Source: Naegleria gruberi (Eukaryota). From it: 64,000 nt of DNA. The DNA is taken from NCBI GenBank assembly GCA_000004985.1, contig GG738867.1, one strand, 5' to 3'. The translations under genes were made by a program, and so were the position numbers. Positions 11,508 to 50,509 of the stretch are shown piece by piece; position 1 is the first letter of the stretch; each line of letters opens with the position of its first letter. Below the pieces are notes generated by a model, which had not been told where the DNA came from, made no database searches, and saw only the letters and a program-made list of their open reading frames with translations.

Positions 11508-12434
11508 TTATTGCCCAATAAGGGATGGATAAATTGATCTTGGATAACCACCCTCATTAAAAACATTAATAACATATCTATTTCCGTTAATTTTAACATC
11601 AGAAAGATTCTTCTTTCCACTTGGTTGTAAACTCTCCAAATAGGCCAGTGTGGAAAGTGCCAATAGGCACTCTGGAGAAATACCAACAAAAAAGCTTCCA
11701 CAAGATTTGAATAATTGATTATCAGATTGACCATCTCCATCCACGTCTTCATCCTGTTTGAAACGAACACAGACATAATCAGGAGTTGACTCATTATCCA
11801 ATCTTCCAGCAAATGAAATCACATCTTGACCTGTATGATTATCAGTCGAATCATCCAACAAGTATTTGAACCAATAGTGATAACCACTCACTTTATCACC
11901 ATTCTTCTCACCTACAACAAGATGCTCAAATCCAGACAGGTCCTTATAGTTGTGTAAGTTATATTGTTTGAACCAAATTTCTCTCAATTTCACTTTCAAC
12001 TCTGTAGGTGTGGAAAGTTTCATATATTTCTGGCCCAGAATTCTCATACACTTGGTTTGAACAATACTTTCAAGAAATTGCTCAACTTCCTTTCTCTCCT
12101 CCTCAGTATTCACCTCGCGACTATGTTGATCAAGTGAATAATTATCAAATAATCTGGAAATTAATTTGTAATTCTTTGCCTGTTTGCTGTTAGATTGTAA
12201 AAATTCGGAATTCTTCACCTGAACATAGACATGCTTGGTGGCATCGTATTGGTACAATTTGAAGAGTGTAAAATTTGGATTGGATCTCTTACGATCCATT
12301 CCACACACAACACATATGTATTCTCCACCAATCGGACCTTGTGGTTTGATCTTGACTGGAGTGAGACGATTCTCATCCGCTTGCCAAATCTCATCCATTA
12401 ACGTTGCAGAGAATTGATAGGAGTGTGAAGACAT
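11508..12434 (-). CDS. EndoU / XendoU-family poly(U)-specific endoribonuclease, 308 aa
   Basis: GFEHLVVGEKNGDKVSGYHYWFKY matches the FEHVFVGE...G.HNW motif. SCGSFFVGISPECLLALSTLAYL matches SSFFIGTSPEFELALYT. The ATG is at 12434. Confidence 0.75.
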   Translation of the reverse strand: MSSHSYQFSATLMDEIWQADENRLTPVKIKPQGPIGGEYICVVCGMDRKRSNPNFTLFKLYQYDATKHVYVQVKNSEFLQSNSKQAKNYKLISRLFDNYSLDQHSREVNTEEERKEVEQFLESIVQTKCMRILGQKYMKLSTPTELKVKLREIWFKQYNLHNYKDLSGFEHLVVGEKNGDKVSGYHYWFKYLLDDSTDNHTGQDVISFAGRLDNESTPDYVCVRFKQDEDVDGDGQSDNQLFKSCGSFFVGISPECLLALSTLAYLESLQPSGKKNLSDVKINGNRYVINVFNEGGYPRSIYPSLIGQ

Positions 12435-15634: not shown

Positions 15635-17251
15635 ATGAGCAAACAAAATAATCATGAAGAGGATCTTCAACAACCTTCCTCTAATTCCTCTTCAATAGAG
15701 AATTCAATACAATCATCATCGCCACAACAACAACAACAAGTTGCTACTTCGAATATTGCCACTCTAACAATAGAAGTTCATGAAAATCCAAGTGAAACTC
15801 AAGAAATAACAATCCCTCCAACAACAACAACAACAATAACCACTACCGACACAAATAACAACATCAATAATACAATTGGAATGTCTCGAATTGGCTCTAT
15901 CAATGCCATCTCCACAATCAACACCAAACAACAACAACCAACATCCCCAACTACTAATATTGCCTCCCCCACAGTCGTCAAACCAATTGAAACAAAGGAA
16001 TGGCAAGTAGACTTTTCCAAATTCCCCATTGTTGATACCGATAGAATGAAGCAATCATCAAAGAAAAAGTTGAGAAAGAAGGTTTCCCAATTCTATGAAA
16101 AACAAAATGAGCTTGTTGAAGGATATGCTGAATTATATACCAATACAGTGACTAAGGAATTTCTGAAGGATTCCGATGAAGAAGGAGAGGAAGGTGATTC
16201 CTTTTTAAAAGATACCAGTGCTGATGATGAAAAGAGAGAAGCAGCTGAGGCCCTTGAGAGGAAGGAGAGTAGATATGCTTCATTTTGTATCCAAGCCAGT
16301 TTTTGGGTCAATGTCTTGCTCTTATTCTTGAAAGTTTCTGCCAGTTTGCTTTCCTTGTCCCTTTCTGTTATTACATCAACCATTGACTCGATTTTGGATT
16401 TGGTCTCTGGACTCATTCTCTTCTATACAAACCTTTTGAAGAAAAAGAAGAGTGATCTTCACTTGTATCCAGCTGGTAAGGAAAGATTGGAACCATTAGG
16501 TTTTATCATCTTTGCCACCTGTATGTCAACAGCCAGTTTACAAATTATTAAGGAAGGTGTTGTTGGTATCATTACAGGTCTAGTTACTGGCGACCCGTAT
16601 CTCCCAACAGATTCTCAAAACATTGTAGAATGGATTATGAAACCAGAGTTACTCAATGGAGAAATGGAATGGATGCTTGGTATCAAAATTCCTTCCACTT
16701 TCAAAATGGTATTTTACATTTATGGTCTTTTTGTATTGTTTATTGCTATTGTGTTGAAATCTGTCCTCTATGTTTTGTGTATCAGAGCTAAGGATTCTCC
16801 ATCATGTGAAGCTTATGCCTTCGATCACAGAAATGATGTATTGAGCAATACCTTTTTAATTATATCTCTCTTTGTTTCTCAGTGGGTTTGGTGGTTGGAT
16901 CCTTTTGGTGCTACTCTGTTATCCATTTATATTATTTATGGTTGGGTTGGTGAGTCGATGGAACATGTGACTAAATTAGTTGGTTTGACTGCCGAATCAG
17001 AGTTTATCAAAAAGTTGACCTTTATTGCTGTAAATCAGAGTGAAAAGATCATGAAGGTTGAAACTGTTACTGCCTGGTACAGTGGTATGAATATTATTGC
17101 TGAGATTCACGTTGTACTTCCACCTAACATGTCCCTTAGAGAAGCCCATAATATTGGTGAGGATTTGCAAATGAAGATAGAGTCTGTCCCAGAGGTGGAA
17201 CGATGTTTCGTACATTTGGATTTCAATGATAACCATAAAATAAGTAAATAA
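15635..17251 (+). CDS. Cation diffusion facilitator (Mn-CDF / MTP8-11-like) metal transporter with Q/T/N-rich N-terminal extension, 538 aa
   Basis: TM region SASLLSLSLSVITSTIDSILDLVSGLILFYT and HLYPAGKERLEPLGFIIFATCMSTASLQI match the CDF signature. The C-terminal cytoplasmic domain ...TVTAWYSG...EIHVVLPPNMSLREAHNIGEDLQMKIESVPEVERCFVHLDF is typical of CDFs. Confidence 0.8.
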   Translation: MSKQNNHEEDLQQPSSNSSSIENSIQSSSPQQQQQVATSNIATLTIEVHENPSETQEITIPPTTTTTITTTDTNNNINNTIGMSRIGSINAISTINTKQQQPTSPTTNIASPTVVKPIETKEWQVDFSKFPIVDTDRMKQSSKKKLRKKVSQFYEKQNELVEGYAELYTNTVTKEFLKDSDEEGEEGDSFLKDTSADDEKREAAEALERKESRYASFCIQASFWVNVLLLFLKVSASLLSLSLSVITSTIDSILDLVSGLILFYTNLLKKKKSDLHLYPAGKERLEPLGFIIFATCMSTASLQIIKEGVVGIITGLVTGDPYLPTDSQNIVEWIMKPELLNGEMEWMLGIKIPSTFKMVFYIYGLFVLFIAIVLKSVLYVLCIRAKDSPSCEAYAFDHRNDVLSNTFLIISLFVSQWVWWLDPFGATLLSIYIIYGWVGESMEHVTKLVGLTAESEFIKKLTFIAVNQSEKIMKVETVTAWYSGMNIIAEIHVVLPPNMSLREAHNIGEDLQMKIESVPEVERCFVHLDFNDNHKISK

Positions 17252-17397: not shown

Positions 17398-19815
17398 TTA
17401 AGTGTTATAATTTCCTCTTCCAACAATTTTATTTCTTTCCAATAGTTCTTTCACTTGTTTGTTTTTTTCAAATGTAATTTTATCCACTTCCTCAGCTAGT
17501 TGAGAGTAACTTTTCAATGGCATGATTTTCTTAAATTCTTCAATTTCATTGGTAATGTTCAATGTTAAATCTTTAATTTCACCTCGCAAGAATTTCAAAA
17601 TATTCTCAATTATTAAAAGGTGTAAATAACAATTCAATATTTTGGTTGAATCTCTTTGAATCATTGTAATGATACATCTGATCAATAGTTCATTAATTCC
17701 AACTTCTGGATCGATAGAATGATTGATCAGTTTTTCAATTGCATAATGTAATTTCATTTCTCCTTCAGTTGTTGTTATTACAGTATAGAAATACTTTCCA
17801 TATCCACTAAAGTATGGATAGCCATTATTGTACTTTGAAACATCTGGATCAGTTACAAATTTTTCATCCAGTTGTAATGGACAATTGGTCAGTAATTTCA
17901 AAAAAATACATCCCAAAGAGAAAATATCAGATGAAGTGGTTATTTGTCCAATATTGTGAGCTAATCTATCGTTATCACCATATTTAAACATGTTGTCAGT
18001 GTAATTGTCATGTGAAACCTCAGGAGACATGTAGGCATACTTTCCACGTGCAATTGTAATTGAGTGACCTATCTTAATAACTCTTGATGTTTCAAAATCA
18101 ATAATTTTAAAAGTATCTCCAATTTTAACAATATTTTGCGGATCTAAATCTCTGTGAGCAATATTATGATCATGAATTGACTTGACTGATCTCAATACTT
18201 TGGTGAATATTTCAAACAATTCTATTAATTTGTCCTTGGTTAAGAAGGTGTCTCGATAAATGTCATTATTTCTGTAAATATAATGTGACAATGATTCCTC
18301 TCCAAGCTCCATCACTGAATACAAATGATTTTGAATAACAGCACATTCAAAACACTTGATCTTTCCTTCAATATCTGTTCTTTTCAATAAATTAATTGTG
18401 TAGTTGGTAGCAGCTTCAGAACCCTCTGGATCATATTTGAATTTCATGGCTCGTAAAGATTTTGTTTTTTTGTGAAATACTTTGAAAACGACGCCTTCTG
18501 CTCCATATCCTAAAACTGAAATAAAGTCATATTCCATTTTGAAATGAATATAGTAATAATTGAGTGCTTTGAAAATTTTTGCTAAATCTCCTCGTAATTC
18601 ATTGTATTTACACAATATTTGTTTGTAATTCTCAAATGTTTGCTCACTTTCAAACCATTTAATGACAAAACTCATAATTTCCATAATTTCCTTTGTTGAA
18701 TAAAAAGAGGTTTTGAAATTACTTGAAACATTTTCCACAACATTCTTCAAATCCTTCATGTCTGTTGTTTGGGAAGGATTATCTTTAAGAAAATTATCCA
18801 ATCTGAAACAAAATAAATGAAAGTTAGCACTTTCTGAAATAGGAATATTGTTGGACAATTCTTCGTGGTTCATTTGTTTCAATATTTGGAAGGTGATTAA
18901 TTTTTCAACAAGTAGTGGTGAATAGGTTTTTTGGTTGAAATAATTAAATAGTGCGCTTTTGGATTTTGGATTAAATAGTGAACTTAACTCAATAGCAAAA
19001 TATAAATCCTTTTCTTCCAAATACTTTTTTGAGTATAGTTCAATAATATTTGTTGATAGCATTCTATGTAAATCAACACAATCCTCAATGCTTTTGGTAA
19101 TAGAAGGAGAGAATTCTTTTGCAATCTTGGTATTGTGTTTGAATAGGGAGAAAATGAAAGGAATATCTCCTTTAAATGAGTTATCAACATGTTCAAGTAC
19201 CAATCTATTTTGTTTAACAGCTTCCAATACTATTTCTCTATCTTTTTTAAATGATTCATCTGCACGTTGAAGTGCATTTCCATTTTGTTTAACAGCTTCC
19301 AATACAAATTCTCTATCCTTTTTAAAAGATTCGTCAACATATTCAAGTACCTTTCCATTTTGTTTAACAACATTCAAAACAAAATTTCTATCTTTTTTCA
19401 ATGATTGATCAGCAAAGTCAAACAAAAATTCATGCAACACAACAACTTGCAATAAAAATTGTCTATCTTTTTTCAATGATTCATCCGCATATTTAAGTAA
19501 CAGTCCATATTGAACTGCAGCATTCCAATCACTATCAGTTTCCTTTCCTTTAACAGCTTCCAATATTATCTCTCTATCTTTTCTAAGTGATTCATCAGCA
19601 CATTGAAGTGCCAATCCATTTTGTTTAACAGCTTCCAATACAATTTCTCTATCTTTTTTGAATGATTCATCTGCATATGTAAGTAACAATCCATTTTGTT
19701 TAACAATATTCAATACAAATTCTCTATCTTTTGTACGCTTCAAAACTCCCAATACGATATCTTGTAGTTGTTGTTCTTGTTGTTCTGTATTATTGTTATC
19801 ATTGCTAGCTATCAT
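17398..19815 (-). CDS. Atypical protein kinase with N-terminal tandem 25-aa DUF4116-like repeats, 805 aa
   Basis: The kinase core has a Gly loop LGYGAEGVVFK, LRAMKF (VAIK Lys), HRDLDPQN (HRD kept, Lys replaced by Asp), DFE in place of DFG, and YMSPE. The N-terminal repeats read YADESFKKDREIVLEAVKQNGLAL. Confidence 0.8.
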   Translation of the reverse strand: MIASNDNNNTEQQEQQLQDIVLGVLKRTKDREFVLNIVKQNGLLLTYADESFKKDREIVLEAVKQNGLALQCADESLRKDREIILEAVKGKETDSDWNAAVQYGLLLKYADESLKKDRQFLLQVVVLHEFLFDFADQSLKKDRNFVLNVVKQNGKVLEYVDESFKKDREFVLEAVKQNGNALQRADESFKKDREIVLEAVKQNRLVLEHVDNSFKGDIPFIFSLFKHNTKIAKEFSPSITKSIEDCVDLHRMLSTNIIELYSKKYLEEKDLYFAIELSSLFNPKSKSALFNYFNQKTYSPLLVEKLITFQILKQMNHEELSNNIPISESANFHLFCFRLDNFLKDNPSQTTDMKDLKNVVENVSSNFKTSFYSTKEIMEIMSFVIKWFESEQTFENYKQILCKYNELRGDLAKIFKALNYYYIHFKMEYDFISVLGYGAEGVVFKVFHKKTKSLRAMKFKYDPEGSEAATNYTINLLKRTDIEGKIKCFECAVIQNHLYSVMELGEESLSHYIYRNNDIYRDTFLTKDKLIELFEIFTKVLRSVKSIHDHNIAHRDLDPQNIVKIGDTFKIIDFETSRVIKIGHSITIARGKYAYMSPEVSHDNYTDNMFKYGDNDRLAHNIGQITTSSDIFSLGCIFLKLLTNCPLQLDEKFVTDPDVSKYNNGYPYFSGYGKYFYTVITTTEGEMKLHYAIEKLINHSIDPEVGINELLIRCIITMIQRDSTKILNCYLHLLIIENILKFLRGEIKDLTLNITNEIEEFKKIMPLKSYSQLAEEVDKITFEKNKQVKELLERNKIVGRGNYNT
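19170..19760 (-). repeat. Tandem 75-nt coding repeats (about 7 copies) encoding the DUF4116-like 25-aa units of the kinase
   Basis: Repeated tctatctttttt(c/a)aatgattcatc(a/t)gca...ttgtttaacagcttccaatac blocks appear on the + strand. The protein repeat is ADESLKKDREIVLEAVKQNGxALEY. Confidence 0.75.
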
Positions 19816-20786: not shown

Positions 20787-22607
20787 ATGAACCCGACACA
20801 ACCGAGCAGCAATCCCAATCTCCTGCAGGTACAAGGCTCTGCAAACCATAATGTCAGTGGTGCTAGTTTAAGCTTTGATGATGTTGGTAGTCATCATAGC
20901 GGATTTGGAGGCATTGGTTTCAATGGAGAGTCAAGCCAGGTAGATCCCTCCGTTACACAAAAGAGTCGTTCTAGTTCCAATAATACGAATAATCCTTTGG
21001 TTATATTTGAGAGGAGTTTTTCGATATTCATCTCGGCGTTAAGGAATACTCTAGAATCAACAACATACATATATTCTGTTCTGCTGTATATTTGGATAAT
21101 TTTGCAAACATTTTCTTTATCTTCCTATTATGAATACAGGTGGGGAAATATTGCAGGATGGATAATGAGAGGAATAGCAGCAATATGGACATTAGGGTTT
21201 GATTTTATGCCATATAATGTAAGTATATAGTGATTAGAGGTGTAATGATTAATATTGTGTTTCCTTAATGATTGTTACTACTCAATTTACTGGTTCTATT
21301 TTAACAACTTCATCAACCCTAAAATCCTTTTCATCCCAATGAATAATTATTAACTTGCAATCTCTCAACAGGGTCATATTGTTATAATATCTCTGTCTTT
21401 GGCCCTTAACATTGTAACATTATTAATGTTCTTATATTGCAAATCTGCGCTTGGAAATGGCAGTAAACATTGGGATAGACTAAAACGATACACAAGAAAG
21501 ATGTGTGTCATTCATCTCGTATTTTCTGTTCCGATGATGTATTGCTATGGAGTGTTTTGGCACTGTGATTATACGACACTGAAATTGTTCGCCTTCTCTG
21601 AAGTTGAATGTTGGTCTCCTTCTAATAGTGGCCTTGCATCAATATCAATGTTGGGAGCATTAATGACTTTCATTATTACATTAATATCAAGTTTGGTTCT
21701 TGTAGATATCAATCCAGCAAGTAAGGGAATATTTGTGAGTTTTACTCCATTCTTTTTTGCTTCTCTAGTTGCTTCGAATACTCTTTTTGCATTCCTTCAA
21801 CAAGCTATTCCTCCTTACATTTACTATGCTGTCCCATCATTATTTATTGTGAAACAGTTATTGTTGTGTGTAGCGCTTGTTCAGAGATATCCATTCTTTA
21901 GAAGAGTGGAAAATTCAGTCATGTTTGGGGTATTGGTAGGCTCTGGAATGTGGGCAGTAGCAAATCTGGTTGTCTTCTCTGTAAATAGTAATGTTCCTTC
22001 AATTGATCTGGAAACATCAGGACTTGCAATAATGGGTGTTGGTTTCTTGTTGCCCATCACTGGGATCGTTCTCGGTTTTGTTGGTATTGAAATTGCCACT
22101 CGTGTCATTGTTTCAAAAGTAAAACATGATCTCGATAACTTAATGAGCAGTCCTCAAGGTGAACTGGAAGAAATGAAGTATTCTCATTTATTTATTCAGT
22201 GGGCCATGAAAGATCATTCCCTTGCAGAGTACGTGCGGTATCTTATTAATGAAGTTTCTTCAACCAAGGTGGATCTCTCATTCATCGATTTGATAACGAG
22301 TGCTTGTTATATGCACTATTTGGTGGAAGATTTTCAAACCAGTGCACTCTTGTTGCTTAAAAGATCTGAAGAAATGTTTGATTCTGTTTGGTTCATTGAC
22401 AGATTAGAACTCCAAATAAGAAAGAGAGAAATCACTAGCCACATTCATGCTGAAAGCGCTGAAGTGTCTGAGTACTTGACAAAAGTTGTAGCTAAACAAG
22501 ACACAATTCTAATTCTCCAAAGATCATTCTGGAAAATTGTCCTATCAGAAGAAATATCTGAATTGGCGATGGAACAAGCAGGAAGAAAGATATGGTCAAC
22601 TCTTTGA
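20787..22607 (+). CDS. Multi-pass membrane module, 2 exons (20787..21218, 21372..approx 22594-22607). It is probably the N-terminal part of the downstream cyclase gene
   Basis: Exon 1 ends ...FMPYN with donor GTAAGT at 21219. Acceptor CAACAG ends at 21371, giving a 153-nt intron with an in-frame TAG. Exon 2 is in phase and encodes 6-8 predicted TM helices, then a cytoplasmic region. It overlaps the start of ORF 22592 in another frame. Confidence 0.55.
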
Positions 22608-25291
22608 ATGAATACAGATATATTCAAAAAAATTTAGAGCTCTATGGAACTCTTGATACTGAGAGGTTTGAATCCATTAAAGGAAGATTGGCTTGGTATG
22701 CCAGTATGATAAATGAAATGGTGAAAACAGTACAATCTAATTATTTCACAGATGAAATGAAAAATGATATGCTTGGAACTAAGAGTGAAGTGTTTCTTCC
22801 TTCTCTTTCTGCTGACGGTAGCTATACGTTCAGCACAAAGAATATGACATATTCAGAATTGATGCATTTGATCGGTTCTGTTACATCAGTATTAGCCAAT
22901 AGTACTTTAGAAACTTTTAGGAATACCACAAACTTTGAGTACATCTTTTTGTGGAAGAACAGGTTACTCTTTATTGATTATTTCGAGGTCTTTTGCGATA
23001 TTTTGACTGCAAGAAACTTTGAACATTTGAATGCATGGTCCAACATTATTATTGGTGTAATGTCAACCCTGATAGGTCTATTTACCATATATTTGATCGT
23101 GTTTTGGGTAATTGTTGGTGGCTATATGAAGGCATCATCCAAGCTATTCAAGCTTTACAAGTTTTTACCAAAGGATGAAGTAGGAAAGCTTTTCCATGAA
23201 TTGGAGAAAAAGACAAGCCAGCTTAATCAAAGAATTGAGTTTAGAAAGTCCAATCTATTATCTCCTTCAAACGTTATGATCTACTTTTTGGCTTTAGTCT
23301 TCTTACTAACTTATATTTCAGTTGGATTGATATTTTTTGAGGCCCTTTACAACTCTGTTTACAACAGACAAGCAATTTCCAAAGTTCAACATGGTACAGA
23401 AATTACGCACGATTTGACCAAGATCACCTTTGGTTCATTCCAATCCTTATTTGATGATACTGATTATCTTCAATATACACACGATGAATTGTATGAATTT
23501 GCAAAGCGGTACAATACCATGGACGAGTACACTGATTTCAGATACGGAACAGAGGATGCAGGTTATTATAATTTAATTGGTATGACATCTTCTATAGATA
23601 CACAAGTTGAGCACCGTGGAACAGATGCTAAATGCAAGAATTACACTTTGATTAATTTTGATATTTCACAAATAGAATGCATGAGCATGGATGAATTGAT
23701 TAATGCAAATGCTTACTATTTAGCTAAACAAGTAGAAGATATTTACAAGAAGAAATATTCAGAAGAACAATTGTTGGCAACTTTTTGGAAGAATTACTTG
23801 GTATACATTCAGACAAGAAAAAAGAGTTGGGGAATCATGCTTGAATCTGTTGATTATTTCACCTCTAGAATTAATCAGAGAATAATAAGTGGTTTGGCTT
23901 GTGCCTTGCCTGCTCTGGTTGCTCTGTTAGCGTATATGGCTTTTAGGACTTATAGTAGAATTAATAAGGAAAGATCTCTCTTCTTATTAATGCTCTTCCA
24001 AGTTCCTTGTGATGTTCTAGATAATCTAGATCCAATCAAGAATTACATTTTTAATAGAAGCTTTGATTCTGGAAAGAAGAATAAGCAATTGTCATTGGAT
24101 GGAAGAAGTGAGGTTAAGGCAGTTTGTGATGCTGCTGTGGATGGAATGATTCTTTGTACCTCTGTTGGTGTGATTGAAATCTTTAACACTGCCTCGGAAA
24201 CAATGTTTGGATACAAGTCCACAGATGTACTTGGATTGTCTCTTACCAAACTGTTTGAAAAGGAAGGCAGAGAAAAGGTAGAGAATATTCTGGCCAGATT
24301 GAGACAATCTAATGAAACAATGGGAGAAACTCTAGAATTGGTTTGTTTAAGAAAAAATGACAGAAAGTTCCCAACAAGAGTTTCCTTATCAGTTAGTTTG
24401 CTAAGCACTTCCAATAACATGAAAAAATCTGTCATTACATGCTTTATCAAGGATATCACCACCGAATTGAAACACAATAATTTGATTAAGGAAGAAAAGA
24501 TGAAGTCTGAAGCACTCTTGTTGAATATTCTCCCTGAACCAGTGGCCAATAGACTGAAGGCAGGTGAAACCAATATATATGAAAACTTTAAGGATGTTAC
24601 CTGTTTCTTTAGCGACATTGTTGGTTTTACAACCATGTCATCAACCATGGAACCAAATCAAGTGGTTGCCATGTTGAACGAAATTGTCAATCAATTTGAT
24701 ATCCTTTGTGACTCGTATGATTTAGAAAAAATCAAAACTATTGGTGATGCATACTTTTGTTGTGGTGGTTTACACAATTGTATGCAAAGTGATCACCCTG
24801 AGAAAGTTGTTAGATTTGCCATTGATACATTGGGTGTCATTTATATTTACAATACTCAAAACAATACTACTGTGAATATTCGTGTTGGTGTACATACTGG
24901 CAGTGTAGTAGCTGGTGTTTTAGGTATAAAGAAGTTTGCTTATGATTTGTGGGGAGATGCTGTAAATACTGCCTCTCGTATGGAATCAACCGGTTTACCT
25001 GGTAGAGTTCAAATATCAAGAGACACTTATGAAAGAGTGCACGATTTGTTCGAATTTGATTTGAGAGAAATTGAAGTTAAAGGAAAAGGTAAAATGAAGA
25101 CATATGTGGTAAAGGAAAAACATCATCAAAATCCAAACAAGGAATCTCCAGAAATTACCAGTACCACTATTCTAAGAAACAGACTGGGTGAATCAAGTTC
25201 TGCAGCAAATTTATTCCAAGCTCAACAAAATATTGACCATGAAAATTCAGTTCCAAATTTACTTCAATTAACCATTCCAGATAAATATTAA
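22592..25291 (+). CDS. Class III adenylate/guanylate cyclase with TM segments and PAS domain, 899 aa as one ORF; it likely continues from 20787
   Basis: A PAS region (SLDGRSEVKAVCDAAVDGMILCTSVGVIEIFNTASETMFGYKSTDVLG) is followed by a cyclase catalytic domain (FFSDIVGFTTMSSTMEPNQVVAMLNEIVNQFD, KIKTIGDAYFCCGG, IRVGVHTGSVVAGVLGIKKFAYDLWGDAVNTASRMESTGLPGRVQIS). Three TM helices lie N-terminal of the PAS domain. Confidence 0.8.
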   Translation: MVNSLNEYRYIQKNLELYGTLDTERFESIKGRLAWYASMINEMVKTVQSNYFTDEMKNDMLGTKSEVFLPSLSADGSYTFSTKNMTYSELMHLIGSVTSVLANSTLETFRNTTNFEYIFLWKNRLLFIDYFEVFCDILTARNFEHLNAWSNIIIGVMSTLIGLFTIYLIVFWVIVGGYMKASSKLFKLYKFLPKDEVGKLFHELEKKTSQLNQRIEFRKSNLLSPSNVMIYFLALVFLLTYISVGLIFFEALYNSVYNRQAISKVQHGTEITHDLTKITFGSFQSLFDDTDYLQYTHDELYEFAKRYNTMDEYTDFRYGTEDAGYYNLIGMTSSIDTQVEHRGTDAKCKNYTLINFDISQIECMSMDELINANAYYLAKQVEDIYKKKYSEEQLLATFWKNYLVYIQTRKKSWGIMLESVDYFTSRINQRIISGLACALPALVALLAYMAFRTYSRINKERSLFLLMLFQVPCDVLDNLDPIKNYIFNRSFDSGKKNKQLSLDGRSEVKAVCDAAVDGMILCTSVGVIEIFNTASETMFGYKSTDVLGLSLTKLFEKEGREKVENILARLRQSNETMGETLELVCLRKNDRKFPTRVSLSVSLLSTSNNMKKSVITCFIKDITTELKHNNLIKEEKMKSEALLLNILPEPVANRLKAGETNIYENFKDVTCFFSDIVGFTTMSSTMEPNQVVAMLNEIVNQFDILCDSYDLEKIKTIGDAYFCCGGLHNCMQSDHPEKVVRFAIDTLGVIYIYNTQNNTTVNIRVGVHTGSVVAGVLGIKKFAYDLWGDAVNTASRMESTGLPGRVQISRDTYERVHDLFEFDLREIEVKGKGKMKTYVVKEKHHQNPNKESPEITSTTILRNRLGESSSAANLFQAQQNIDHENSVPNLLQLTIPDKY

Positions 25292-26672: not shown

Positions 26673-29066
26673 ATGTCTCAAGAAGATCAAGAGGTTATCG
26701 TGATTGTAGAAGACCAAGAACAACAGAAAGATTCTCTTCCTTTCGATCAAGCAAGAATAGAACAAACTAAACTATTCGGAACTAATCAAACTAATTCCTT
26801 GTTTCCAACCAATGATCAACCAAAAACAAGATTCGTCCTCTCCATTGATGGTGGAGGTGTCAGAGGAACCCTCGCAGGTTCAATCCTTGCCACTCTCGAA
26901 AAGGAAGTCATCCAAGAAATTGCCAAACATTTTGCAGAGCTAGGAGAAAAACCACCAACCAATAACTTTAGTTTAACTTCATGTTTCGATTTGGTAGTCG
27001 GTACATCAACAGGTGGAATCATTGCATTAGGTGCTGGTATTTCTAATAATGGAGGACCTTTCGATTTTAAATTTTCTGCCTCTGATTTGGGAGATTTATA
27101 TACGAATAATAGTTCACAGATATTTAGTAAGGAATTTAAACATGGAAAATTGAGAGAATTTTTGATTTCTTCGAGATATGATCCAACTGGATTGGAAATT
27201 GTCATGGAAAAGTATTTTGGAAAGGCCAAGTTGAGTGATTTGGTTATTCCAGTGATGGTAACTTCATATGATTTAAATAGACAAGAATTGGTTGTGTTTG
27301 ATAGTGAAATGGCTAAACCTAAAGGAGAATTGACTATGAGACAGTTACCTTCTGATTATTATTTGAAAGATATTGCACTTGCCACTTCAGCAGCTCCAAC
27401 TTTCTTTCCAATTAGAACGATTGAGTCAATTACAGATCCAAGTGATAAACATGATTATATTGATGCTGCAGTAACTGCTAATAATCCAACCATGTTGGCT
27501 TATTTGAAAGCAAAGAAAATGTATCCAGGCGATTCCATTAATATTGTTTCATTGGGTTGTGGTTATGAAGGTATTGATAGACCTTCATTGGAAGGAAAGA
27601 TTGAATGGGCCAAGACAATTTCCTCTCTCATGATTCAAGGAGCATCTAATTTGACTGAATATTTAATGCAACAAATGGTAGATTTGTCACCTTTGGATAA
27701 ATATTGGAGAATTGATGTGAAATTGGATCAGGCAGCTTTAGATTTGACATCTGAAGATTATTTGAAGAGTTTAAAGATATTGGGATCAAGTTTGAGAACC
27801 AACGATGGTAATGCCTATAAGAATATTAGAGATACCATTATTGACTTTTATAGAAGTAAGAGTTTTTATACTTGTTTCAAGTTGATTGAAAAAGTTGAAA
27901 GTCAATTGATGAGTCCAAAGTACAGAAAGAATGATCAGGTTAGAATTGACCTTTCAGATGTTGGATTGACTCCAATTGCATTATGGGAAGTGGTTCACTA
28001 TTTGAAAAATCAAGTTGACTATGAAAAAATTTACAAAATTGATTTGAGTGGACAAACTATAACTGTTGAAATATTAGAACAATTGCTCCATTTGAGAACT
28101 GAAGAAGCTCCTGAAAAATTGAAAAAGAAACATTGTTCTGTTGAGAAACTAACTGTCAAGACTCAAATCTTGGAAGAGAAATGTTTAATTCACAAATTAA
28201 TCATGAGAGATTGTCAATTGAGTGGTCAAGTCCTTGCATGGCTTGTCAATAAGAGTAAATTGTTTGATGTCTTGGATTTGGGAGGAAGTGTCAAATTGAG
28301 TGAATGTGATTCTGGATTTTTGGATTCTCTCTGTCAATTGTCTGAAAGAGGAAATGTCATTCTAGAAGGAAAGGCCTATTGGGTGATTGGTAATCATTAC
28401 AGATACTTTGAGAAATTCGATCATTGCAGAAAATCTTACAAGAAAGGAAGTGAATTAGGCGATGTTGATTGTGAATATTTGGATTGCTTAATGGGATATT
28501 TCACAGATAATTTACAAGATCGAAATGAGCAACTTCATCAAATATTGAAGAATAGAAATGAAAGAGTTGGATATTTACTTGGCTTGGCAATTGAACAACG
28601 AAACCTTTCGAATAATGAACAAGCTCAACAATCAAGAAGTTCAATCGATTCTCCATCAAGTAGCTCACCATCCAGTTCATCTCCTATGAAAATTCCACAA
28701 GAAAACGATCCACTACCACCTGAATTTGTCGAATATGAAATTGAGAATCATCATGCCCTATGTGTCGATTGGTATGTCCGAGTTTCTCAATCCATATCCA
28801 CAAAAGATTCTTCACAACCATGGATTGATAAGGCAAAACTTCGACTTTCAAAAGGAAAGACACTTCTTCCAGCTGCATCCAGTCTTGGCTTGGTGTTGTA
28901 TCCACAAGGTGCAAATACCACAATTGGAGAAGCTATTCTTTCAAAAAAGGAAAGAAAAGATCAGCAAAAAAAGGAAAAACAAGAAGAAAAGGAAAGAGAA
29001 AAAGAAAGAAAACGATTGGAAAAAATGGAAAAGAAGGAATTAAAGCAAAAGATGAAGAATCAATAG
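26673..29066 (+). CDS. Patatin-like phospholipase (iPLA2-like) with C-terminal leucine-rich region and K/E-rich tail, 797 aa
   Basis: Patatin motifs are present: SIDGGGVRGT (oxyanion), VVGTSTGGIIAL (GxSxG) and IDAAVTANNP (catalytic Asp). An LRR-like region lies downstream. The C-terminus reads KKEKQEEKEREKERKRLEKMEKKELKQK. Confidence 0.8.
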   Translation: MSQEDQEVIVIVEDQEQQKDSLPFDQARIEQTKLFGTNQTNSLFPTNDQPKTRFVLSIDGGGVRGTLAGSILATLEKEVIQEIAKHFAELGEKPPTNNFSLTSCFDLVVGTSTGGIIALGAGISNNGGPFDFKFSASDLGDLYTNNSSQIFSKEFKHGKLREFLISSRYDPTGLEIVMEKYFGKAKLSDLVIPVMVTSYDLNRQELVVFDSEMAKPKGELTMRQLPSDYYLKDIALATSAAPTFFPIRTIESITDPSDKHDYIDAAVTANNPTMLAYLKAKKMYPGDSINIVSLGCGYEGIDRPSLEGKIEWAKTISSLMIQGASNLTEYLMQQMVDLSPLDKYWRIDVKLDQAALDLTSEDYLKSLKILGSSLRTNDGNAYKNIRDTIIDFYRSKSFYTCFKLIEKVESQLMSPKYRKNDQVRIDLSDVGLTPIALWEVVHYLKNQVDYEKIYKIDLSGQTITVEILEQLLHLRTEEAPEKLKKKHCSVEKLTVKTQILEEKCLIHKLIMRDCQLSGQVLAWLVNKSKLFDVLDLGGSVKLSECDSGFLDSLCQLSERGNVILEGKAYWVIGNHYRYFEKFDHCRKSYKKGSELGDVDCEYLDCLMGYFTDNLQDRNEQLHQILKNRNERVGYLLGLAIEQRNLSNNEQAQQSRSSIDSPSSSSPSSSSPMKIPQENDPLPPEFVEYEIENHHALCVDWYVRVSQSISTKDSSQPWIDKAKLRLSKGKTLLPAASSLGLVLYPQGANTTIGEAILSKKERKDQQKKEKQEEKEREKERKRLEKMEKKELKQKMKNQ

Positions 29067-47494: not shown

Positions 47495-50090
47495 TCATTT
47501 AAGTAATAACTTTAATTTTCTAATTTCTTCCTCAAGTTCCTTGATTCTCATATTTTCCTTTTTAAGTTCCTTATTTTCTTGTTTTAATTTTTCATTTTCC
47601 TCGACTATTTGAGGAATCTCCTTCAGTTCAGATATTTCACTATACTTATCTTCCATTTCCTTTTGAATTAATTCAATACTTTCTGAACTATTATCTTTCA
47701 AATAATTAATAACTCTTAAAAGGATTGTTCTGTGAGTGTAGCACATCAATCTCTTATTGGGATCTTGTTGAATCATGGTAATTAAGCATCGTGTTAAGAT
47801 TGTATTCACACCAAAATTAGGATCTATATATTGATCAATTGTTTTTTGGATGGCGTGGTGTAATTTCTTTTCTCTCAATAACTCCGTCAATACTGTATGA
47901 AAATAAACACCATCCCACACAAAATATCGATACTGCTCGGCATATTTCTGTACATTCGCATCTTGTAAAAACTTTTTATCCAACATTAATGAACTATTTG
48001 TCAATAATTTCAGTAAAATACATCCCATTGAGAAAATATCACTCATAGTTGAAATATTCCCAATATTTTGAACAAGTTTGCCATCATCGAGTAATTCCTC
48101 TCTATAACTGGCTTGAGAGACTTCAGGAGACATGTAACTTAACTTTCCAATAGTCAATGTGATAGATTTTCCAGTCTTGGCCACTTTTGCGATGTCAAAG
48201 TCAATAATTTTGTATTGATCTGAAACTTTGACAATATTCTTTGGATCTAAATCTCGGTGAATAATATTATGGTCATGAATGGTTTGCACCGAGTAGAGTA
48301 TTTTTGTGAATATTGTTAATATTTCAATTAAATAATCTTTGGTAATAGACTTTTGTGTATAAACCTCACTATTTCTATTAATGTAATCAGACAAAGATTC
48401 CTCTCCTATTTCCATAACTGTATATAGATGATTACTAATTTGATTAGCTTCATAACATTTAATTTTACCCTCAATATCACTTTTAAGAAAGTTGATTCTC
48501 TCTTGGGCAGGAGCTACGTCTAAATATTCATAACTAATTTTAAAAGCAACATATTGATTAGTCTCCTTATTGAAAGCTTTAAATACAACTCCTTCAGCTC
48601 CATATCCTAAAACTGATACCAGCTCATAAACAATATTTTTTTGGTCTTTTGAGTAATTGTAATAATCTTTGATTATTCGAATGATTTTTAAATATTCATT
48701 ACTACATTCGTTATATTTGGCTATTAACTCTCTAGGGTTATCAAAAATAGTCAAATCTGATGTCCACTCTTCATAAAAATGTAATATTGGTTCAACCTCT
48801 TTATCTGAATAATATACTTCAAATTTAGAGGCAATATCATCAACAACACTCTTAATATTTGAAAAATAGGTTGAGTTCAATTTTGATTGATATTCTTCAA
48901 AAAACTTATATAATTTAAAGCAAAATAAATAGTAATCAAAAGTCTTGAATATGTGGGGTTTAGAAGATGGATTAATTGAGCTGATATTTTTCAATATTTG
49001 AATAATGATTAACTTTTCAATAAACTTTGGAGAATAATTAGATCTAAAATTAAGAAAGTTTGGTTTCTCATTTGGAAATATGTCTTTAAAGAACAAATAA
49101 CAGAATAGATCATTTTCCTCACAGAATTTCTTGTTATAATATTCAACAATACCTTTGGATAGTTTTTGATTAATAGAATTGGTATCAACTTTCTTGAGGA
49201 ATTTGTATTTAGCGGTTTTAGATGAATACTTGTTGGGTAGTGAGCTGATGATCTTCATATCTTTTTTCAATGATTCATCTGCATATTCGAGTACATATCC
49301 ATCTTGTTTAACAGCTTTCAATATAAATTCTCTATCTTTTTTAAATGATTCATCTGCATATTCAAATGCTCTTCCATGTTGTTTAACAGCTTCCAATATA
49401 AATTCTCTATCTTTTTTAAATGATTCATCTGCATATTCAAGTGTATATCCATCTTGTTTAACAGCTTCCAATATAAATTTTCTATCTTTTTTCAATGATT
49501 CATCTGCATATTCAACATATTTCCATTTTGTTTAACAGCTTCCAATATAATTTCTCTATCTTTTTTCAATGATTCATCTGCATATTCAAATGTACTTCCA
49601 TTTTGTTTAACAGCTTCCAATACAATTTCTCTATCTTTTTTCAATGATTCATCTGCATATTCAAGTGCATATCCATTTTGTTTAACAGCTTTCAATACAA
49701 TTTCTCTATCTTTTTTCAATGATTCATCTGCATATTCAAGTGTATATCCATTTTGTTTAACAGCTTTCAATACAATTTCTCTATCTTTTTTCAATGATTC
49801 ATCTGCATATTCAAGTGCATATCCATATTGTTTAACAGCTTTCAATATAAATTCTCTATCTTTTTTCAATGATTCATCTGCATATTCAAATGCTATATCC
49901 ATCTTGTTTAACAGCTTTCAATATAAATTCTCTATCTTTTTTCAATGATTCATTTGCATATTTAAGTGCATATCCACCATTTTGTTTAACAGCTTCCAAT
50001 ACAATTTCTCTATCTTTTTTAAATGATTCATCTGCATAGTAAAATGCTAATCCATTTTTTTAAACAGCTTCCAATACAGACTGACGAGTA
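47495..50090 (-). CDS. Paralogous atypical protein kinase with DUF4116-like repeat array. The kinase core is intact (ORF 47495-49495). The N-terminal repeat array is frame-disrupted
   Basis: The kinase core shows LGYGAEGVVFK, VAFK, HRDLDPKN, DFD and YMSPE, plus a C-terminal coiled-coil KELKKENMRIKELEEEIRKLK. Upstream repeats KKDREFILEAVKQ(D/H)G..LEYADES continue into ORF 49492-49902 and beyond. At least two frame changes occur, near 49495 and 49900-50060. Confidence 0.55.
49180..50080 (-). repeat. Tandem 75-nt coding repeats (about 11-12 copies) of the DUF4116-like unit, with frame-breaking indels
   Basis: Near-identical tctatcttttttcaatgattcatctgcatattcaagtg(c/t)atatccattttgtttaacagct(t/c)tcaatacaatttc units. 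Some copies carry 1-nt length differences. Confidence 0.75.
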
Positions 50091-50509
50091 TTCAAAACCA
50101 TTTCTTCCAGACAATGTGTGACAAGCTTCTGCTTCAATCAATATTTTTTTGAATTTTCAAACGTGATGGCGATAAAATTTTGATGACCACAAGCCTACAA
50201 ACTCCTCAACATTCTTTTTAATTTTTTATCGAAAGAAAAGAAGGAAGGAATACAAAGTTGTGATTCTCACTCCAGGAATTACCAAGAATTAATACACTAT
50301 TGGATGAAAGGAAAAAACAGAAAATTCTCTTGCTAATCATTTCCCTACCACAGAATTCTTTGTCCTGTGCAGTTCGTTGTTCCATCACAGAAGCAAATAA
50401 AAGGCAGAAAATTATGAAAAAAATGCAAACAACAACTTGAAAATATTTTGATAGGAAGAATTTGCACTTGGTGCGAAAAGATAAGACAATAAGAAGAGCT
50501 GAATAGAAA

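What the first reader, a model, noticed from the sequence alone, without database searches (positions are those of the whole stretch)
17398..19815. Atypical kinases (HRDLD / DFE-DFD) fused to tandem DUF4116-like repeats, in two paralogous copies 30 kb apart
The two minus-strand genes at 17398-19815 and 47495-50090 share the same architecture. An N-terminal array of 25-aa repeats (ADESLKKDREIVLEAVKQNGxALEY) is followed by a helical linker and a protein-kinase domain. In the kinase domain the catalytic-loop Lys is Asp (HRDLDPQN and HRDLDPKN). The DFG motif reads DFE in one copy and DFD in the other. The Gly loop, VAIK Lys, HRD Asp and APE-like SPE are retained. This combination is not a standard kinase group. 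It suggests either a pseudokinase scaffold or a lineage-specific active family with altered phosphate coordination.
Basis: partly seen in the sequence, partly recalled or inferred. Interest (0 to 1): 0.6.

Follow-up and report, generated by a model that had tools for sequence, protein, structure and literature searches.

The report
Naegleria kinases with swapped catalytic lysine
Two genes of the amoeba Naegleria gruberi belong to a species-restricted family of repeat-bearing protein kinases in which a normally essential active-site lysine has become aspartate while a lysine has appeared at the residue that normally touches it. This suggests a rewired but possibly still working enzyme, and one of the two genes has a broken front end.

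Summary
The window is Naegleria gruberi. ORF 17398-19815(-) is an annotated but uncharacterised 805-aa protein with a DUF4116 repeat array, a helical domain, a protein-kinase domain and a short tail. Its motifs read HRDLDPQN and DFE. The second locus has the same layout with HRDLDPKN and DFD. Its repeat array, however, carries an in-frame TAA and two frameshifts, so only 47495-49495 is an intact ORF.

The family occurs only in Naegleria. At least 15 N. gruberi paralogs plus one environmental sequence form a monophyletic clade (97% bootstrap). All of them combine the catalytic-loop change Lys->Asp (PKA K168) with the P+1-loop change Thr->Lys (PKA T201). All eight relatives that keep HRDLK also keep Thr. 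The change of the DFG glycine to Asp/Glu is older and family-wide. The residues K72, D166, N171 and E208 are invariant and D184 is kept in 14/15, so the standard sequence definition of a pseudokinase is not met.

Best reading, by inference only: a lineage-specific, probably ATP-binding and possibly active Ser/Thr kinase with a relocated lysine. A pseudokinase scaffold is almost as likely, especially for copy 1, which alone has lost the conserved alphaC-region Glu and the R280 equivalent. I found no literature on this family. It is a new variant of a known kind and of moderate interest.

The parts
17398..19815 (-). Copy 1: intact single-exon gene of 805 aa plus stop (N. gruberi 'predicted protein', P0001)
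   Evidence: ORF. 100% identity and coverage to P0001. Pfam DUF4116 plus Pkinase.
19150..19740 (-). Copy 1 DUF4116 array: about 8 units of 25 aa (aa ~26-222), one of them with an insertion
   Evidence: Pfam DUF4116 E=7.7e-68. TRF period 75 nt at 19164-19499 and 19549-19732. KKDR anchors spaced 25 aa apart.
18532..19149 (-). Copy 1 family-specific all-alpha domain (aa ~223-428) between the repeats and the kinase
17581..18531 (-). Copy 1 protein-kinase domain (aa ~429-745)
   Evidence: Pkinase E=7.6e-25. PDB sequence hits to CDK/TTK/CDPK at ~1e-10. Foldseek top hits CDK2/CDK1/Pho85 at ~20% identity.
18133..18156 (-). Copy 1 catalytic loop HRDLDPQN. D556 is the HRD Asp, D558 replaces PKA K168, N561 equals N171.
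18091..18099 (-). Copy 1 DFE (D573-F574-E575) in place of DFG
18019..18045 (-). Copy 1 P+1 loop GKYAYMSPE. K592 aligns without gaps to PKA T201 (7 residues before the APE Glu).
18400..18402 (-). Copy 1 Y472, at the column where 12 of 15 paralogs have the conserved alphaC-region Glu
   Evidence: The register relative to PKA E91 is uncertain by one residue.
17638..17640 (-). Copy 1 I726, at the position of PKA R280 (Arg in 14 of 15 paralogs)
47495..49495 (-). Copy 2 intact reading frame: 3 DUF4116 units, helical domain, kinase and coiled coil. There is no ATG upstream of M80 (49256-49258).
49258..50101 (-). Copy 2 DUF4116 array: 10.9 units of 75 nt, 91% alike, up to the presumed original ATG at 50099-50101. 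It is broken by TAA 50060-50062, a +1 insertion at ~49894 and a -1 deletion at ~49515.
   Evidence: TRF. Sequence and three-frame translation. Unit spacings of 154 and 74 nt.
48236..48259 (-). Copy 2 catalytic loop HRDLDPKN
48194..48202 (-). Copy 2 DFD in place of DFG
48122..48151 (-). Copy 2 P+1 loop IGKLSYMSPE (Lys at the T201 position)

Best explanation
Both loci belong to a Naegleria-restricted, expanded family of multidomain eukaryotic-type protein kinases. The layout is a DUF4116 alpha-solenoid array, a family-specific helical domain, a divergent kinase domain and a C-terminal coiled coil.

In one monophyletic clade the catalytic-loop lysine that normally contacts the ATP gamma-phosphate (PKA K168) became Asp. 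The clade comprises at least 15 N. gruberi paralogs. In the same clade the P+1-loop threonine that normally hydrogen-bonds to that lysine (PKA T201) became Lys.

The most likely reading is a compensated 'lysine swap'. The new Lys pairs with the new Asp and supplies the positive charge from the other side of the site. The domain would then still bind ATP and metal and probably still transfer phosphate to Ser/Thr. This is analogous in principle to WNK kinases, whose beta3 lysine sits elsewhere.

The replacement of the DFG glycine by Asp/Glu is an older, family-wide trait. The DUF4116 array (variable in length) and the coiled coil would provide targeting and oligomerisation.

What is shown: the architecture, the motifs, the covariation, the clade structure and the conservation. 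What is inferred: the salt bridge, ATP binding and catalytic activity.

Copy 1 has in addition lost two conserved residues and may be the least active member. Copy 2 has a damaged repeat array. It is either a recent pseudogene or is expressed without repeats from M80.
For: The covariation is complete. All 15 N. gruberi HRDLD domains read GK at the T201 position, and all 8 HRDLK relatives read GT. An environmental member also has HRDLD, DFE and GK. Both alignments are ungapped relative to the HRD Asp and the APE Glu.

The HRDLD clade is monophyletic (97% bootstrap). The pair has stayed invariant while kinase-domain identity fell to 43%.

The other catalytic and structural residues are kept. G50, G55, K72, H164, D166, N171, F185 and E208 are invariant. 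D184, D220 and R280 are each present in 14/15. Only 20% of kinase-domain columns are invariant overall. A conserved activation-loop Thr ('SIT') and the HRD Arg are also retained.

Outside the family the two positions are coupled. In 253 kinase domains, loss of K168 goes with loss of T/S201 (odds ratio 48, Fisher p=5e-5). One unrelated domain has HRDLT together with GK.

D at 168 occurs in 0/253 and K at 201 in 1/253 of those domains. The fold is a normal ePK fold. That K168 and T201 are in hydrogen-bond contact in PKA is my own knowledge; I found no paper in the library stating it.
Against: There is no biochemical, expression or coordinate-level evidence. The structure tool returns no coordinates, and the activation segment of the model has pLDDT below 50.

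The covariation reflects a single evolutionary event. Thirteen columns discriminate the two groups, and six of them are gains of Lys, which could reflect AT-biased drift. I estimate the chance that a contact partner changed to Lys by coincidence at roughly 0.05-0.1.

The site has become strongly acidic, with D168, E/D186 and Glu at the G-loop tip.

Some members show further decay. Copy 1 has Y472 and I726. P0006 has HGD. The first domain of P0011 reads NFN and is fused to a second, canonical kinase domain. The first domain of N. lovaniensis P0123 lacks DFG altogether.
Confidence: 0.45

Rival explanations
1. The clade consists of pseudokinases. These would be catalytically dead, possibly nucleotide-binding scaffolds or allosteric regulators, and the Asp-Lys pair would merely staple the P+1 loop to the catalytic loop. 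The DUF4116 array and the coiled coil would carry out the actual scaffolding work.
For: The K168 equivalent is important for phosphoryl transfer in Ser/Thr kinases (own knowledge). Here it is replaced by an opposite charge. The DFG Gly is replaced by Asp/Glu and the G-loop aromatic residue by Glu.

Sporadic further losses occur in the family: copy 1 Y472 and I726, P0006 HGD, and P0011 domain 1 NFN. P0011 and N. lovaniensis P0123 have a degenerate first domain fused to a second kinase domain, a JAK-like tandem.
Against: K72, D166 and N171 are invariant and D184 is present in 14 of 15 paralogs despite divergence down to 43% identity. The standard sequence criterion for a pseudokinase is loss of K72, D166 or D184, and it is not met. 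The activation-loop Thr and the HRD Arg are kept. The coupled T201K change is what one would expect for compensation.
Confidence: 0.38
2. Copy 2 (47495-50101) is a pseudogene, and the pair has no joint function. The apparent 'same architecture twice' would be two members of a large dispersed family that happen to lie 30 kb apart.
For: There are three disabling lesions in the array. The public gene model P0010 needs a 35-nt 'intron' made of repeat-coding sequence, and it deletes 21 conserved codons. The two copies fall in different subclades. The genes between them are unrelated: cyclase, patatin and others.
Against: The remaining 666 codons are open in a 33% GC genome, and every family hallmark is intact. 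The annotated models of paralogs P0009, P0011 and P0121 lack DUF4116 repeats, so a product starting at M80 is plausible. Indels in a tandem array that is 91% identical could be assembly errors.
Confidence: 0.4
3. The domain has changed chemistry rather than lost or kept protein-kinase activity. Examples would be use of an additional metal ion bound by the extra acidic residues, ATP hydrolysis, or phosphorylation of a non-protein or strongly basic substrate.
For: Three acidic residues have been gained around the phosphate site while the metal ligands N171 and D184 are retained. Kinase-like enzymes that act on small molecules commonly lack K168 (own knowledge).
Against: Nothing here points to a particular alternative substrate. 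The P+1 loop/APE region and the activation segment that ePKs use for peptide substrates are conserved.
Confidence: 0.1

Closest known systems
CMGC-type Ser/Thr kinases (CDK2, CDK1, Pho85) and TTK/Mps1
   Same: They are the best sequence and fold matches. PDB sequence hits reach E~1e-10. Foldseek gives E~1e-10 with TM 0.6-0.67 normalised to the target. The bilobal ePK fold, G-loop, beta3 Lys, HRD, N171, DFx Asp and APE Glu are shared.
   Different: Identity is only ~20%. Position 168 is D instead of K, 186 is E/D instead of G, and 201 is K instead of T. There is a ~20-aa insert after APE and a large insert before alphaI. A 200-aa N-terminal helical domain and the DUF4116 array are also present.
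WNK kinases (relocated catalytic lysine)
   Same: The principle is the same: an 'invariant' active-site lysine is absent from its canonical position while a lysine elsewhere in the site is proposed to substitute (own knowledge for WNK; inference here).
   Different: In WNK the beta3 (K72) lysine moves to the G-loop. Here K72 is present, and it is the catalytic-loop K168 that is lost, with Lys gained at T201. The two are not homologous at family level.
Tyrosine-kinase catalytic loop HRDLAARN
   Same: K168 is absent, and a basic residue two positions later (R170) takes over (own knowledge). Copy 2 and its subclade read HRDLDPKN, with Lys at that same +2 position.
   Different: Copy 1's subclade has Gln there (HRDLDPQN). 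Position 168 is Asp rather than Ala. The P+1 loop is of the Ser/Thr type in length and in the APE context.
MLKL pseudokinase (GFE in place of DFG)
   Same: An acidic residue occupies the DFG-Gly position (own knowledge for MLKL). Here it is DFE or DFD.
   Different: MLKL has lost the metal-binding Asp. Here the Asp is kept in 14/15 paralogs.
DUF4116 (PF13475) repeat proteins
   Same: The 25-aa units match the Pfam model strongly. The family was modelled as an alpha-solenoid in PMC8078820. Such arrays are abundant in Naegleria and in many bacteria and metagenomes.
   Different: Here the array is fused N-terminally to this kinase family. Other Naegleria proteins carry it C-terminal to ordinary HxDIKPAN kinases (P0038, P0057, P0103). 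No function is known for it.

Membership tests
Eukaryotic protein kinase superfamily (Pfam Pkinase PF00069) | HMM score above the gathering threshold | tested here: met
   88.2 bits (copy 1) and 99.8 bits (copy 2) against a cut-off of 31.7.
Eukaryotic protein kinase superfamily (Pfam Pkinase PF00069) | Bilobal kinase fold | tested here: met
   AF2 model plus Foldseek: 1971 PDB matches at E<=0.001, the top 50 listed being almost all CDK kinases.
Canonical active Ser/Thr kinase | Catalytic loop HRDLKxxN with Lys at +2 from the catalytic Asp | tested here: not met
   Asp in all 15 paralogs and in L002.
Canonical active Ser/Thr kinase | DFG with Gly | tested here: not met
   DFE in 8, DFD in 6 and NFN in 1.
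Canonical active Ser/Thr kinase | beta3 Lys, HRD Asp, Asn171, DFG Asp and APE Glu present | tested here: met
   Present in both window copies. Invariant, or 14/15, across the clade.
Canonical active Ser/Thr kinase | alphaC Glu pairing with the beta3 Lys | tested here: inconclusive
   A conserved Glu lies one column from PKA E91 in 12/15 paralogs. Copy 1 has Tyr there. The helix register cannot be fixed without coordinates.
Canonical active Ser/Thr kinase | Phosphotransfer activity | not testable with these tools
   This needs an in vitro assay.
Pseudokinase (sequence definition: loss of K72, D166 or D184) | At least one of the three residues is missing | tested here: not met
   All three are present in copies 1 and 2. 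Only domain 1 of P0011 lacks D184.
DUF4116 (PF13475) | HMM score above the gathering threshold, in tandem units | tested here: met
   224 bits (copy 1), and 170 plus 210 bits (the two copy 2 ORFs), against a cut-off of 24.9. Period 75 nt.
WNK kinases | beta3 Lys replaced, with the catalytic Lys in the G-loop | tested here: not met
   The beta3 Lys is invariant, and the G-loop reads GxGxEG without Lys.
CDK/CMGC group | Group-level sequence similarity and group motifs | tested here: inconclusive
   These are only the best of many weak hits (E~1e-10, ~20% identity). TTK and CDPK score equally well. No group phylogeny was run.

The most novel reading that the evidence does not exclude
The HRDLD/GK clade is catalytically active. 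It would be a natural example of an active-site lysine moved from the catalytic loop to the P+1 loop, i.e. a second 'relocated lysine' solution after WNK. It arose once in the Naegleria gruberi lineage and was then amplified to at least 15 genes. It may also have altered metal or phosphate coordination, because of the extra acidic residues at DFG+2 and at the G-loop tip.
Probability: 0.4. Interest if true: 0.7.

Novelty: new variant of a known kind. Interest (0 to 1): 0.48.

Why it matters
Sequence-based rules are used to sort kinases into 'active' and 'pseudo' across whole kinomes. The catalytic-loop lysine is treated as near-universal in Ser/Thr kinases. A clade that replaces it with the opposite charge, installs a lysine at the residue it normally touches, and then keeps both through at least 15 duplications is a natural experiment. 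It tests how plastic the phosphotransfer site is. If the clade is active, it adds a new compensated geometry and shows that such proteins should not be dismissed as dead. If it is inactive, it is a large, young pseudokinase expansion with a traceable origin, because ancestral-type HRDLK/GT relatives survive in N. gruberi and N. lovaniensis. It also gives the uncharacterised DUF4116 repeat a recurrent signalling partner in Naegleria.

Tried and rejected
- **Initial organism guess.** I first took this for a dictyostelid from its composition. The 100% hit to N. gruberi corrected that.
- **Word-index searches.** The search with linker plus kinase alone, and the search with the HRDLK-type alignment, added few members. 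The exhaustive profile search was the informative one.
- **The look-up of encoding contigs.** The lookup for P0001 found nothing, so no transcript or DNA of paralogs was available and dN/dS could not be computed. Copy 1 and copy 2 are too diverged for dS.
- **First bootstrap script.** It timed out and was replaced by a custom NJ bootstrap.
- **Literature searches.** Searches for HRDLD, DUF4116, Naegleria kinome/pseudokinase and the PKA K168-T201 contact gave nothing relevant. The contact therefore rests on my own knowledge.
- **Metagenome scan.** It gave only one true family member.
- **Explanations for copy 2's lesions.** I rejected the idea that they are real introns. The proposed 35-nt intron is repeat-coding sequence, and the second one removes conserved residues.
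- **Recent tandem duplication.** I rejected this for the two copies because they fall in different subclades.
Full report
**Identity of the window and check of the observation**

The window is eukaryotic, at about 33% GC. ORF 17398-19815(-) encodes 805 aa. It is 100% identical over its full length to an annotated 'predicted protein' of Naegleria gruberi, on a 424-kb scaffold.

Pfam finds DUF4116 (E=7.7e-68, 5 stretches) and Pkinase (E=7.6e-25, aa 429-647), both far above their gathering scores. Tandem Repeats Finder gives a 75-nt period (25 aa) at 19164-19499 and 19549-19732. This corresponds to about eight units.

- G-loop LGYGAEG
- beta3 Lys K458
- HRDLDPQN (554-561)
- DFE (573-575)
- SPE

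Neighbouring genes are ordinary and unrelated: a CDF zinc transporter, a PAS-adenylate cyclase, patatin, XendoU, Nup98 and an RGS protein. tblastn finds only these two family loci in the window.

**Copy 2 is not intact**

The second locus has the same order of modules, with HRDLDPKN and DFD. Its repeat array has 10.9 units that are 91% alike. Reading from the presumed original ATG (50099-50101), the array contains three lesions:
- an in-frame TAA at 50060-50062
- a +1 insertion near 49894
- a -1 deletion near 49515

Only 47495-49495 is a long open frame. Its first ATG (49256-49258) lies after the last repeat.

The public gene model P0010 starts at 49902 and bridges the frameshift with a 35-nt 'intron'. 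That intron consists of repeat-coding sequence. The model also removes 21 codons that align with conserved residues of the paralogs. I regard both introns as modelling artefacts.

The 666-codon frame is nevertheless open, and every family hallmark in it is intact. The annotated models of three paralogs (P0009, P0011 and P0121) lack DUF4116 repeats. The locus is therefore either a recent pseudogene, a repeat-less gene starting at M80, or a victim of assembly errors in a near-identical array.

**Extent of the family**

An exhaustive profile search of 1.84 billion representative proteins used the linker-plus-kinase alignment. Full-length matches came only from N. gruberi, N. lovaniensis and a few environmental or Logan fragments. 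Scores then fall to those of generic kinases.

At least 15 N. gruberi proteins carry H[RG]DLD: P0001-P0011, P0121, P0122, P0124 and P0268. One metagenomic contig adds another member with HRDLD, DFE and GK.

Relatives with the canonical HRDLK are:
- N. lovaniensis P0026, P0123 (both domains) and P0125
- N. gruberi P0127
- P0126 and P0130 of unknown origin
- the second domain of P0011

A neighbour-joining tree recovers the HRDLD group as monophyletic in 97% of 300 bootstraps. Copy 1 is sister to the P0002-P0005/P0009 cluster, and copy 2 groups with P0121 and P0268. The two window copies are thus distant paralogs: 45% identity over linker plus kinase and 57% over the kinase domain.

**The central result: coupled changes at two positions**

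I aligned all family domains with PKA and CDK2. Every one of the 15 HRDLD domains has Lys at the position of PKA T201. This is the 'GT' of the P+1 loop, exactly seven residues before the APE Glu. Every one of the eight HRDLK domains has Thr there. Both positions align without gaps to invariant anchors, so the assignment is secure.

In PKA, T201 hydrogen-bonds to D166 and K168. This is my own knowledge; I could not find a paper in the library to cite for it. The change K168D plus T201K therefore looks like a relocation of the lysine across a direct contact.

Independent support comes from 253 kinase domains outside the family, taken from the best hits of the two searches:
- D at 168 occurs 0 times, K at 201 once, and an acidic residue at 186 four times.
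- Loss of K168 is associated with loss of T/S201 (odds ratio 48, Fisher p=5e-5, not corrected for phylogeny).
- One unrelated two-domain protein has HRDLT together with GK.

There are caveats. Within the family this is a single evolutionary event. Thirteen columns fully discriminate the two groups. Six of them are gains of Lys in an AT-rich genome. I estimate the chance that a contact partner of K168 changed to Lys by coincidence at roughly 0.05-0.1.

**Other active-site features**

The DFG glycine is Asp or Glu, or the motif reads DLD, in both the HRDLD and the HRDLK groups. That change is therefore older than the lysine swap. The G-loop tip, aromatic in most kinases, is Glu in the HRDLD clade and mostly Gln in the HRDLK group.

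Across the 15 paralogs, only 20% of kinase-domain columns are invariant, and identity falls to 43%. Against that background:
- G50, G55, K72, H164, D166, N171, F185 and E208 are invariant.
- D184, D220 and R280 are each kept in 14 of 15.

A Thr in the activation loop ('SIT', five residues before K/T201) and the HRD Arg are conserved. By the usual sequence criterion (loss of K72, D166 or D184), neither window copy is a pseudokinase.

There are also signs of decay:
- Copy 1 alone has Tyr (Y472) where 12 paralogs have the conserved alphaC-region Glu. The register relative to PKA E91 is uncertain by one residue.
- Copy 1 alone has Ile (I726) at the R280 position.
- P0006 reads HGD.
- The first domain of P0011 reads NFN and is followed by a second, canonical kinase domain.
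- N. lovaniensis P0123 is a similar tandem whose first domain lacks DFG.

**Structure**

An AlphaFold model of linker plus kinase has mean pLDDT 72.7 and a disordered activation segment. By Foldseek it matches CDK2, CDK1 and Pho85 best, at about 20% identity and TM about 0.65 normalised to the target. Sequence search of the PDB gives CDK, TTK and CDPK at about 1e-10. This is a genuine but divergent ePK domain with no clear group affiliation.

**Interpretation**

I consider it most likely (about 0.45) that the clade retains nucleotide and metal binding, and probably phosphotransfer, through a compensated lysine swap. The DUF4116 solenoid would act as a targeting or scaffolding module. PMC8078820 models the family as an alpha-solenoid. 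The C-terminal coiled coil would act as an oligomerisation module.

A pseudokinase scaffold is nearly as likely (about 0.38). It is the better bet for copy 1 itself, given its two private losses. A change of chemistry, such as an extra metal or another substrate, cannot be excluded (about 0.1).

No paper in the library mentions HRDLD, this family, or a kinase role for DUF4116. The proteins exist in databases only as predicted proteins. I rate this a new variant of a known kind and of moderate interest.

Noticed in passing
P0011 (N. gruberi, 861 aa) and P0123 (N. lovaniensis, 1080 aa); not in the window: Both are tandem two-kinase-domain proteins. Their first, family-type domain has lost the DFG Asp (NFN, or no DFG at all). 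Their second domain keeps HRDLK/HRDIK. This is a JAK-like pseudokinase-kinase arrangement that appears in both species.
   Followed up: partly
window 49902-47495 (public gene model P0010): The public gene model P0010 for copy 2 uses a 35-nt GT..AG 'intron' made of DUF4116 repeat-coding sequence to bridge a frameshift. A second 63-nt 'intron' removes residues (CSNEYLKIIRIIKDYYNYSKD) that align with conserved residues of the paralogs. Both are probably annotation artefacts.
   Followed up: yes
[not shown]
   Followed up: partly
P0038, P0057, P0103 (N. gruberi), P0044 (N. lovaniensis); not in the window: Other Naegleria kinases with ordinary catalytic loops (HHDIKPAN, HSDIKPAN, HRDIKPGN) are also fused to DUF4116 arrays. 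In the three N. gruberi proteins the array is C-terminal to the kinase. DUF4116-kinase fusion has therefore arisen repeatedly in this genus.
   Followed up: no
P0182 (515 aa, unknown organism): This unrelated two-domain NEK-like protein has HRDLSPDN with GN and HRDLTPDN with GK. It is an independent case in which loss of the catalytic-loop Lys goes with loss of the P+1 Thr, once to Lys.
   Followed up: partly
window 18127-18129 (copy 1 K564) and family-wide: Position PKA I174, a beta7 C-spine residue that is hydrophobic in the HRDLK relatives, is Lys in all 15 HRDLD paralogs. Five further clade-specific columns are also gains of Lys. It is unclear whether this is functional or AT-driven.
   Followed up: no
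window 50510-53056 (+) and 50218-51129 (-): A Nup98-type nucleoporin sits next to copy 2, with an N-terminal Asn/Ser/Thr-rich low-complexity region with scattered FG-type motifs and a C-terminal S59 autopeptidase domain. The 303-aa ORF on the opposite strand is an artefact of the low-complexity repeats.
   Followed up: partly
window 22592-25291 (+), 53644-56169 (+), 26673-29066 (+), 11508-12434 (-), 15635-17251 (+): Neighbouring genes encode a PAS-adenylate/guanylate cyclase, an RGS-domain protein, a patatin-like phospholipase, a XendoU endoribonuclease and a CDF zinc transporter. There is no obvious functional link to the kinases.
   Followed up: no
one search hit list: Strong DUF4116 matches to the Naegleria repeats come from many bacterial and metagenomic proteins (Saganbacteria, Parachlamydiaceae, Bacilli and others) with diverse fused domains. 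The repeat is widely shared between protists and bacteria.
   Followed up: no
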